From NCBI RefSeq assembly GCF_003334355.1, contig NZ_QOWP01000003.1: 64,000 nucleotides of DNA; one strand, 5' to 3'. The stretch comes from Escherichia coli (lineage in GTDB: Bacteria > Pseudomonadota > Gammaproteobacteria > Enterobacterales > Enterobacteriaceae). The translations under genes and the position numbers were made by a program. The notes under the pieces are model-generated. The model made no database searches and had not been told where the DNA came from. It saw only the letters and a list, made by a program, of their open reading frames with translations. Position 1 is the first letter of the stretch. Every line of letters begins with the position of its first letter. This document shows, one piece after another, positions 34,435 to 35,427 of this stretch.

Positions 34435-35427
<993 letters not shown>

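What the first reader, a model, noticed from the sequence alone, without database searches (positions are those of the whole stretch)
35005..35007. aphA is interrupted by an in-frame TGA at the conserved Trp48 codon
The acid phosphatase reading frame is intact and in a single frame on both sides of the stop. Residues 1-47 (signal peptide and start of mature protein) run into TGA, and the same frame continues with [28 protein letters not shown]... to the native C-terminus. The wild-type codon is expected to be TGG, so this is a single G>A transition on the coding strand. The gene is therefore a nonsense pseudogene in this strain, a candidate for low-level UGA read-through by tRNA-Trp, or a sequencing or lab-strain artefact. 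No SECIS-like hairpin follows it, unlike fdhF.
Basis: partly seen in the sequence, partly recalled or inferred. Interest (0 to 1): 0.6.

Follow-up and report, generated by a model that had tools for sequence, protein, structure and literature searches.

The report
Nonsense-mutated aphA phosphatase pseudogene
A single C-to-T change turns the tryptophan-48 codon of the E. coli periplasmic acid phosphatase gene aphA into a stop codon in one small natural lineage; this is an ordinary, recent gene-inactivating mutation that the public annotation pipeline already flags as a pseudogene.

Summary
aphA lies on the minus strand (34435..35148). Codon 48 is TGA (35007..35005), and the frame is otherwise intact to the native stop. 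The only difference from intact alleles in 1 kb is window base 35005 (+ strand T instead of C, so TGG>TGA).

The allele is real and rare. Among 5,426 complete E. coli genomes only strain PSS-12 carries it, and NCBI's PGAP annotates aphA there as a pseudogene, "internal stop". An unrelated draft assembly (GCA_002190165.1) also has it and is 100% identical to the window over 9.2 kb. The window and PSS-12 differ at 15 other sites in 64 kb, so the stop arose in their common ancestor and is not a sequencing artefact.

No SECIS-like structure follows the stop. Trp48 is invariant in 121 Enterobacteriaceae sequences, so selenocysteine recoding is excluded.

aphA is independently broken in other E. coli by IS insertions, a Q43 amber codon and a frameshift, which fits a dispensable gene.

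One caveat remains. UGA read-through normally inserts Trp, so any leak would regenerate wild-type AphA. The allele may therefore be a severe hypomorph and not an absolute null. This is untested, and the sequence context gives no sign of programmed read-through.

Verdict: an ordinary, already annotated pseudogene of low interest.

The parts
34435..35148 (-). aphA (class B acid phosphatase/phosphotransferase) reading frame, 237 codons plus stop, interrupted at codon 48; a pseudogene
   Evidence: Translation. Identical to intact alleles except at base 35005. PGAP annotation of the identical sequence in PSS-12 reads 'acid phosphatase AphA, pseudo, internal stop'. The repaired protein matches TIGR01672 at 421.6 bits.
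35005..35007 (-). Premature opal stop codon TGA replacing Trp48 (TGG); the mutated base is 35005 (+ strand T, ancestral C)
   Evidence: The allele is found in 1 of 5,426 complete genomes, whereas the TGG 35-mer is found in 2,349 genomes.
35008..35148 (-). 5' fragment: 47 codons comprising the 25-residue signal peptide plus the first 22 residues of mature AphA; the only product expected from normal termination
   Evidence: Translation. PDB chains 1N8N and 2B82 start at residues 26 and 27.
34435..34959 (-). Downstream in-frame ORF starting at Met64 (174 aa). It contains all four catalytic Asp residues (D69, D71, D192, D196) but has no signal peptide. It could be translated only by read-through or by weak internal re-initiation.
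   Evidence: ORF list. Asp columns are conserved in 48-50 of 50 sequences. Gene callers report this same 174-aa product in other genomes whose aphA 5' end is disrupted.
34407..34429 (-). Terminator-like GC-rich hairpin just after the aphA stop codon (10 bp stem followed by a T-rich tail)
   Evidence: Consensus scan only; function not tested.

Best explanation
A spontaneous G:C>A:T transition (+ strand C>T at window 35005) converted the Trp48 codon TGG of aphA into the opal stop TGA in the common ancestor of a small natural E. coli lineage related to ATCC 8739. That lineage includes the window's genome, draft GCA_002190165.1 and strain PSS-12. RF2 terminates translation after 47 residues, releasing a signal peptide plus a 22-residue stub that lacks the DDDD catalytic core, so the cell loses periplasmic class B acid phosphatase. 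Promoter region, frame and terminator are otherwise unchanged, so this is a young pseudogene with no secondary decay. Shown: the mutation, its uniqueness, its presence in independent assemblies, and its derived state. Inferred: loss of enzyme activity and near-neutrality of the loss. AphA overlaps in function with UshA and other periplasmic phosphatases, and it is recurrently inactivated in other strains.
For: There is a single-base difference from intact alleles over 1 kb, and only 7 differences from ATCC 8739 over about 33 kb (16.7-50 kb) around it. PGAP annotates the identical allele as a pseudogene with an internal stop. The allele is unique among 5,426 complete genomes on both synonymous backgrounds, with a positive control of 2,349 hits for the TGG version. 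The same allele is in draft GCA_002190165.1, which is 100% identical to the window over 9,194 bp. Polarisation with ATCC 8739 gives 8 SNPs private to the window and 7 private to PSS-12, and the aphA change is shared and derived. All 16 changes run from G:C to A:T or T:A, or are T>A, which is typical of unpurged spontaneous mutations. Trp48 is invariant in Enterobacteriaceae, and the catalytic Asp residues all lie downstream of the stop. aphA is independently disrupted elsewhere: IS insertions after about codon 26 (L008, L010, L012), another insertion (L013), Q43>TAG (L009), a +1 frameshift (L011) and IS1 insertions (H2, H3). In addition, 93 of 5,426 genomes lack a contiguous match over at least 80% of the locus.
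Against: No expression or enzyme data exist for these strains. UGA is the leakiest stop codon in E. coli, and read-through inserts mainly Trp, which here would restore the exact wild-type protein (PMC11126739). Complete loss of activity is therefore not proven. The absence of further mutations in aphA in either branch carries no information, because only about 0.17 would be expected in 714 bp at the observed divergence of 15 SNPs per 64 kb.
Confidence: 0.86

Rival explanations
1. Leaky allele: near-cognate decoding of UGA by tRNA-Trp(CCA) yields a biologically meaningful amount of full-length AphA. Because Trp is the residue inserted, that product would be exactly wild type, making the gene a low-expression or condition-dependent hypomorph and not a dead gene.
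For: According to PMC11126739, TGA is the most read-through stop codon in E. coli, with rates from below 1% to several percent in reporters and higher at low temperature or under nutrient stress. The same paper reports that the residue inserted is mainly Trp and that a G at +4 (the base here: UGA-G) raised read-through in its reporter set. The downstream frame is fully intact.
Against: The 5 nt upstream of the stop are TTCAT, T-rich with no G, and in the same study this kind of context lowers read-through. The classic leaky contexts are UGA-A and UGA-C, not UGA-G (PMC5289835). The high rates were measured in K-12, and PMC11126739 itself attributes them partly to the inefficient K-12 RF2 allele; this lineage is not K-12. 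No stimulatory downstream structure is predicted (z = +1.17). The intact frame is uninformative given how young the mutation is.
Confidence: 0.1
2. Sequencing or assembly artefact, or a laboratory-acquired mutation: the true sequence is TGG.
For: It is a single-base difference seen in very few assemblies. The data here cannot give read-level support.
Against: The same base is present in three sequence sources from at least two unrelated submissions: the window, the PSS-12 complete genome (AP027697) and draft LYBG01 (GCA_002190165.1). The window and PSS-12 have diverged at 15 other sites. The site is not in a homopolymer and not in a GATC or CCWGG methylation motif (sequence). The other three pseudogenes in the window are shared with ATCC 8739, so the assembly is not noisy. 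PSS-12 is a human faecal isolate, not a lab strain.
Confidence: 0.02
3. Programmed recoding of UGA as selenocysteine, as in fdhF in the same window.
For: Only that the codon is an in-frame UGA in an organism that has the Sec machinery (fdhF UGA at 5948-5950).
Against: Intact alleles have TGG/Trp at this position: the close neighbours, 2,349 genomes matched by the TGG 35-mer and all 120 close homologues. Trp23 is in the solved structures. The RNA after the UGA folds no better than shuffled sequence (z = +1.17), showing only a weak 7-bp A-U/G-U-rich hairpin. The fdhF control shows the long SECIS hairpin starting 5 nt after its UGA. There is no Rfam match.
Confidence: 0.005
4. Internal re-initiation at Met64 produces a cytoplasmic 174-residue AphA core that has the catalytic Asp residues but no signal peptide, giving the locus a new intracellular activity.
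For: An ATG lies 16 codons after the stop, with a weak AGGG 9 nt upstream (sequence). The ORF retains D69, D71, D192 and D196.
Against: The Shine-Dalgarno match is poor. The product would start only 5 residues before the nucleophile and would lack mature residues 1-38 (precursor 26-63), the N-terminal segment that, from my recollection of the AphA crystal-structure papers and not checked here, contributes to the homotetramer. Met64 is simply the conserved residue of the intact protein: M, I, L or V in 45 of 50 sequences. Nothing suggests selection for this product.
Confidence: 0.015

Closest known systems
E. coli aphA (P0AE22; b4055), class B acid phosphatase/phosphotransferase, HAD subfamily IIIB, DDDD superfamily
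   Same: Same locus and synteny (tyrB - aphA - yjbQ - yjbR - uvrA). The sequence is 100% identical to the ATCC 8739 allele except for one base. The repaired protein is a full-length TIGR01672 equivalog, and apart from I213 versus V213 it is identical to PDB 1N8N over residues 26-237.
   Different: Codon 48 is TGA instead of TGG, so normal termination gives a 47-residue stub with no catalytic domain.
aphA pseudogene of E. coli PSS-12 (NZ_AP027697.1, locus tag AABK13_RS12705, PGAP note 'internal stop')
   Same: Identical allele and identical 1 kb context.
   Different: The window's genome is not PSS-12. It differs at 15 SNPs over 64 kb, and it matches draft GCA_002190165.1 at the two of those sites that lie in the 9.2 kb compared.
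Other independent aphA inactivations in E. coli (IS insertions, Q43 amber, frameshift)
   Same: Same gene, same outcome (loss of the signal peptide and/or the frame upstream of Met64), scattered across unrelated genomes.
   Different: Different mutations at different positions. None of them is a Trp>UGA change, the one nonsense type whose natural read-through would restore the wild-type residue.
fdhF UGA/SECIS selenocysteine recoding (same window, 5948-5950)
   Same: An in-frame UGA inside an otherwise continuous reading frame.
   Different: fdhF has the SECIS hairpin immediately 3' of its UGA, and the UGA is conserved. The aphA UGA has no such structure and is a lineage-private mutation of a Trp codon.

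Membership tests
AphA / class B acid phosphatase (NCBIfam TIGR01672; Pfam PF03767) | Full-length match to the equivalog model above the curated cutoff | tested here: met
   With codon 48 read as Trp: 421.6 bits against a cutoff of 195.8, residues 1-237 on model positions 1-237. The identical 174-aa C-terminal fragment carries PF03767 in the precomputed table.
AphA / class B acid phosphatase (NCBIfam TIGR01672; Pfam PF03767) | DDDD motif: two pairs of catalytic Asp (D69/D71 and D192/D196 in precursor numbering) | tested here: met
   All four are encoded in the frame downstream of the stop, and the columns are Asp in 48-50 of 50 sequences. The motif definition comes from PMC8475336.
AphA / class B acid phosphatase (NCBIfam TIGR01672; Pfam PF03767) | N-terminal signal peptide for periplasmic export | tested here: met
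   Residues 1-25, [25 protein letters not shown], precede the first residue of the mature chains 1N8N and 2B82. No signal-peptide predictor was run.
AphA / class B acid phosphatase (NCBIfam TIGR01672; Pfam PF03767) | Uninterrupted open reading frame giving an active enzyme | tested here: not met
   There is an in-frame TGA at codon 48. The locus is therefore an aphA pseudogene, not a functional member. Enzyme activity cannot be tested here.
Bacterial selenoprotein gene (UGA + SECIS) | SelB-binding stem-loop immediately 3' of the UGA | tested here: not met
   The aphA downstream fold has z = +1.17 with only a weak 7-bp hairpin. The fdhF control shows the expected hairpin. There is no Rfam hit.
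Bacterial selenoprotein gene (UGA + SECIS) | UGA or Cys codon conserved at the position in orthologues | tested here: not met
   Orthologues have Trp: 121/121 sequences, i.e. 120 close homologues plus the repaired query. Among 50 sequences (49 diverse representatives plus the query) it is W/Y/F in 41, with a single Cys.
Programmed stop-codon read-through | Conservation of the stop together with a stimulatory context or structure, and measurable read-through product | tested here: inconclusive
   The stop is not conserved (1 of 5,426 complete genomes). No downstream structure is predicted. The context is mixed: +4 G against a T-rich upstream stretch. The product level cannot be measured with these tools.

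The most novel reading that the evidence does not exclude
Because natural UGA read-through inserts Trp, this particular nonsense allele could be a phenotypically silent-when-leaky switch. Under conditions that raise UGA read-through (low temperature, starvation, acid pH), the lineage would still make authentic wild-type AphA at a few percent of normal. The allele could then have persisted as a tuned-down, conditionally expressed gene and not as a dead one.
Probability: 0.08. Interest if true: 0.3.

Novelty: already known. Interest (0 to 1): 0.07.

Why it matters
It matters little. It is one more example of sporadic loss of a dispensable periplasmic phosphatase in natural E. coli, and RefSeq already labels it a pseudogene. 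Practical value is limited to three points. The SNP is a clean lineage marker linking the window's genome, GCA_002190165.1 and PSS-12. Strains of this lineage should be scored AphA-negative in phosphatase or nucleotide-utilisation phenotyping (growth on purine nucleotides depends on UshA and AphA per PMC8475336). A natural Trp>UGA allele in a non-K-12 background could serve as a convenient chromosomal reporter of endogenous UGA read-through.

Tried and rejected
(1) I searched for other carriers with the exact 47-aa N-terminal fragment. All hits were genes cut by contig ends after codon 47 (contigs ended in CAT, CATT or CATTG). That is a selection effect of asking for an exact 47-residue product, not evidence for the stop, so I rejected it.

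(2) I searched with the 174-aa Met64 fragment. It found many genomes, but the six loci shown carry other lesions with TGG intact. This was useful only as evidence of recurrent aphA loss.

(3) I used the window's TyrB (A321T) as a lineage tag. The variant proved not to be lineage-private (215 blocks, mostly with intact aphA), but one locus (L026) turned out to be the window's own branch and carries the TGA.

(4) An exact 31-mer scan of JGI metagenome contigs for the mutant allele gave 0 hits.

(5) I tried to tie PSS-12 to the Ecuador/Vietnam mcr study (PMC10621974), which used hybrid DNBSEQ + MinION assembly with Pilon polishing. The strain name and accession are in neither the text nor the held supplements, so the link is unconfirmed and I did not rely on it.

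(6) The fold z-score does not discriminate SECIS well (the fdhF control gave only z = -0.78). The argument against Sec therefore rests mainly on the Trp conservation and on the shape of the hairpin, not on z-scores.

(7) I did not check the RF2 (prfB) residue-246 allele or tRNA-Trp of this lineage, because neither gene is in the window.

Full report
**Observation**

The aphA reading frame lies on the minus strand at 34435..35148. Translating it gives 47 residues ([47 protein letters not shown]), then TGA at 35007..35005, then 189 further codons in the same frame ([28 protein letters not shown]...VNSEY) up to the native stop. With codon 48 read as Trp, the protein matches the NCBIfam AphA equivalog TIGR01672 over its full length, 421.6 bits against a cutoff of 195.8. 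It also matches the solved E. coli AphA structures 1N8N and 2B82. Those chains start at residues 26 and 27, so W48 is Trp23 of the mature enzyme.

**What exactly changed**

A 1,001-bp stretch around the gene was compared with 5,426 complete E. coli genomes. One genome is 100% identical: strain PSS-12 (NZ_AP027697.1), from human faeces in Puyo, Ecuador. Many others are 99.9% identical.
- Base-by-base comparison with two of those, ATCC 8739 and strain 720632, shows a single difference at window 35005. The coding strand has A instead of G, so TGG becomes TGA.
- In PSS-12, NCBI's PGAP annotates the gene as 'acid phosphatase AphA', pseudo, 'internal stop'. In the neighbours it is an ordinary 237-aa CDS.

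**Rarity**

I used a 35-mer centred on the SNP, chosen so that every 28-base megablast seed must include the mutant base.
- The mutant 35-mer hits PSS-12 only.
- The same test on the alternative synonymous background (Pro45 CCC) finds nothing.
- The TGG>TAG variant finds nothing.
- The positive control with TGG finds 2,349 genomes.
- A 31-mer scan of JGI metagenome contigs finds nothing.

**Real mutation or artefact**

The window is not PSS-12. Over the full 64 kb it differs from PSS-12 at 15 evenly spread single-base positions. With ATCC 8739 as outgroup, 8 of these are private to the window's genome and 7 are private to PSS-12. The aphA change is derived and shared by both.

A look-up with the window's TyrB protein retrieved draft contig LYBG01000420.1 (GCA_002190165.1). 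It is 100% identical to the window over 9,194 bp, including the TGA and the window-private tyrB SNP. By coordinate arithmetic that contig starts at about window position 8686, so the window itself comes from yet another, more contiguous assembly of the same branch.

The stop codon is therefore present in sequences from at least two unrelated submissions and on two diverged branches. The site is not in a homopolymer or a Dam/Dcm motif. The other three pseudogenes annotated in the window (yjcF, a DUF2713 gene and a SopA-family gene) are shared with ATCC 8739, so they are not assembly noise. An artefact is effectively excluded.

All 16 polarised changes are G:C>A:T (12), G:C>T:A (3) or T>A (1), and most coding ones are non-synonymous. 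That is the signature of recent spontaneous mutations not yet purged. From a divergence of about 2.3e-4 per site I infer that the allele has persisted for something on the order of a century or more. This is a rough inference that depends on an assumed clock rate.

**Recoding alternatives**

*Selenocysteine.* The 68 nt starting at the aphA UGA fold no better than shuffled sequence (MFE -15.2 kcal/mol, z = +1.17), with only a weak 7-bp A-U/G-U-rich hairpin. There is no Rfam match in 34300-35500. The fdhF UGA in the same window (5948-5950) is followed by the expected long SECIS hairpin. More decisively, the position is Trp in all 121 aligned sequences (120 Enterobacteriaceae homologues plus the repaired query). 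Among 50 sequences (49 diverse representatives plus the query) it is W in 27 and aromatic in 41.

*Read-through.* The literature in hand says that TGA is the leakiest stop in E. coli, that the residue inserted is predominantly Trp, and that rates range from below 1% to several percent in K-12 reporters, rising at low temperature and under nutrient stress. It partly attributes these rates to the weak K-12 RF2 allele (PMC11126739).
- In that study a G at +4 raised read-through, and T-rich sequence in the 5 nt upstream lowered it. Here +4 is G and the upstream 5 nt are TTCAT, so the context is mixed.
- Classical work names UGA-A and UGA-C as the leaky contexts (PMC5289835).
- Some read-through certainly happens, and it would regenerate authentic AphA. 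Nothing indicates that it is programmed or large.

*Internal re-initiation at Met64.* This ORF (34435..34959) would give a signal-less 174-aa core. The Shine-Dalgarno match is weak (AGGG, 9 nt upstream), and I consider a functional product unlikely.

**Consequence**

[quoted passage not shown] All four catalytic Asp residues (D69, D71, D192, D196) lie downstream of the stop, so normal termination yields no enzyme.

The gene is evidently dispensable, because independent lesions occur in other public genomes:
- an IS element inserted after about codon 26 (L008, L010, L012)
- another insertion (L013)
- Q43>TAG (L009)
- a +1 frameshift (L011, in an assembly with other split genes, so possibly an error)
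- IS1 insertions (H2, H3)

In addition, 93 of 5,426 complete genomes lack a contiguous match over at least 80% of the 1-kb locus.

**Comparison with the known, and verdict**

This is the known gene aphA carrying a known kind of lesion, and the identical allele is already annotated as a pseudogene in RefSeq. It is a member of the AphA family by sequence, but it fails the one criterion that matters for function, an open frame. It is neither a selenoprotein gene nor a recognisable programmed read-through site.

The only mildly interesting twist is that Trp>UGA is the one nonsense change that natural mis-decoding repairs to wild type. The allele may therefore be a severe hypomorph and not a strict null. 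I give about 10% to that leak being biologically meaningful.

Novelty: already known. Interest: low (0.07).

Noticed in passing
window 1-64000 vs NZ_AP027697.1 2541867-2605866: The window is not identical to its best database match, PSS-12. There are 15 evenly spread SNPs: 8 private to the window and 7 private to PSS-12, by ATCC 8739 outgroup. All are G:C>A:T, G:C>T:A or T>A. Six of the 7 window-private coding changes are non-synonymous (nrfF A117V, nrfA P35T, tyrB A321T, dinF V187M, ubiA S168N, ubiC V94I).
   Followed up: partly
window 5948-5950 (fdhF, + strand 5531-7678): The fdhF selenocysteine UGA at codon 140 is followed by the canonical SECIS hairpin starting 5 nt downstream. I used it as the positive control for the aphA fold.
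   Followed up: yes
window 8464-8726: There is a 113-bp tandem REP/BIME-like repeat (2.3 copies, 94% matches) in the yjcO-gltP intergenic region. ATCC 8739 has 226 bp (two units) more here. Draft contig LYBG01000420.1 appears to begin within this repeat.
   Followed up: partly
window 8951-16693 and 49965-52137: Two tracts are much more divergent from ATCC 8739 than the rest: 124 SNPs across gltP and the nrf operon, and about 23 SNPs across plsB-ubiA-ubiC, against only 7 differences in the roughly 33 kb between them. This looks like recombination imports. PSS-12 shares both tracts.
   Followed up: no
window 21485-22778, 43276-44297, 52336-53915: PGAP annotates three other pseudogenes in the identical PSS-12 sequence: yjcF (pentapeptide repeat), a DUF2713 gene and a SopA-family gene, all 'frameshifted'. 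All three are also pseudogenes in ATCC 8739, so they are older and inherited.
   Followed up: partly
window 35150-36270 (ORF 35550-35936, + strand): The aphA-tyrB spacer is AT-rich and carries a 128-aa hypothetical protein (WP_001339137.1) with no Pfam hit. In other genomes gene callers report 67- to 167-aa versions at the same place, so its coding status looks doubtful.
   Followed up: no
L008, L010, L012 (about 160 bp upstream of the 174-aa ORF); L009; L011; L013; H2, H3: aphA is recurrently inactivated in unrelated E. coli: an IS (rve-family transposase) inserted after about codon 26, an IS1 insertion, a Q43 amber codon, a +1 frameshift and another insertion near codon 39. The 174-aa Met64 fragment is on record in 473 blocks of the assembly collection.
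   Followed up: partly
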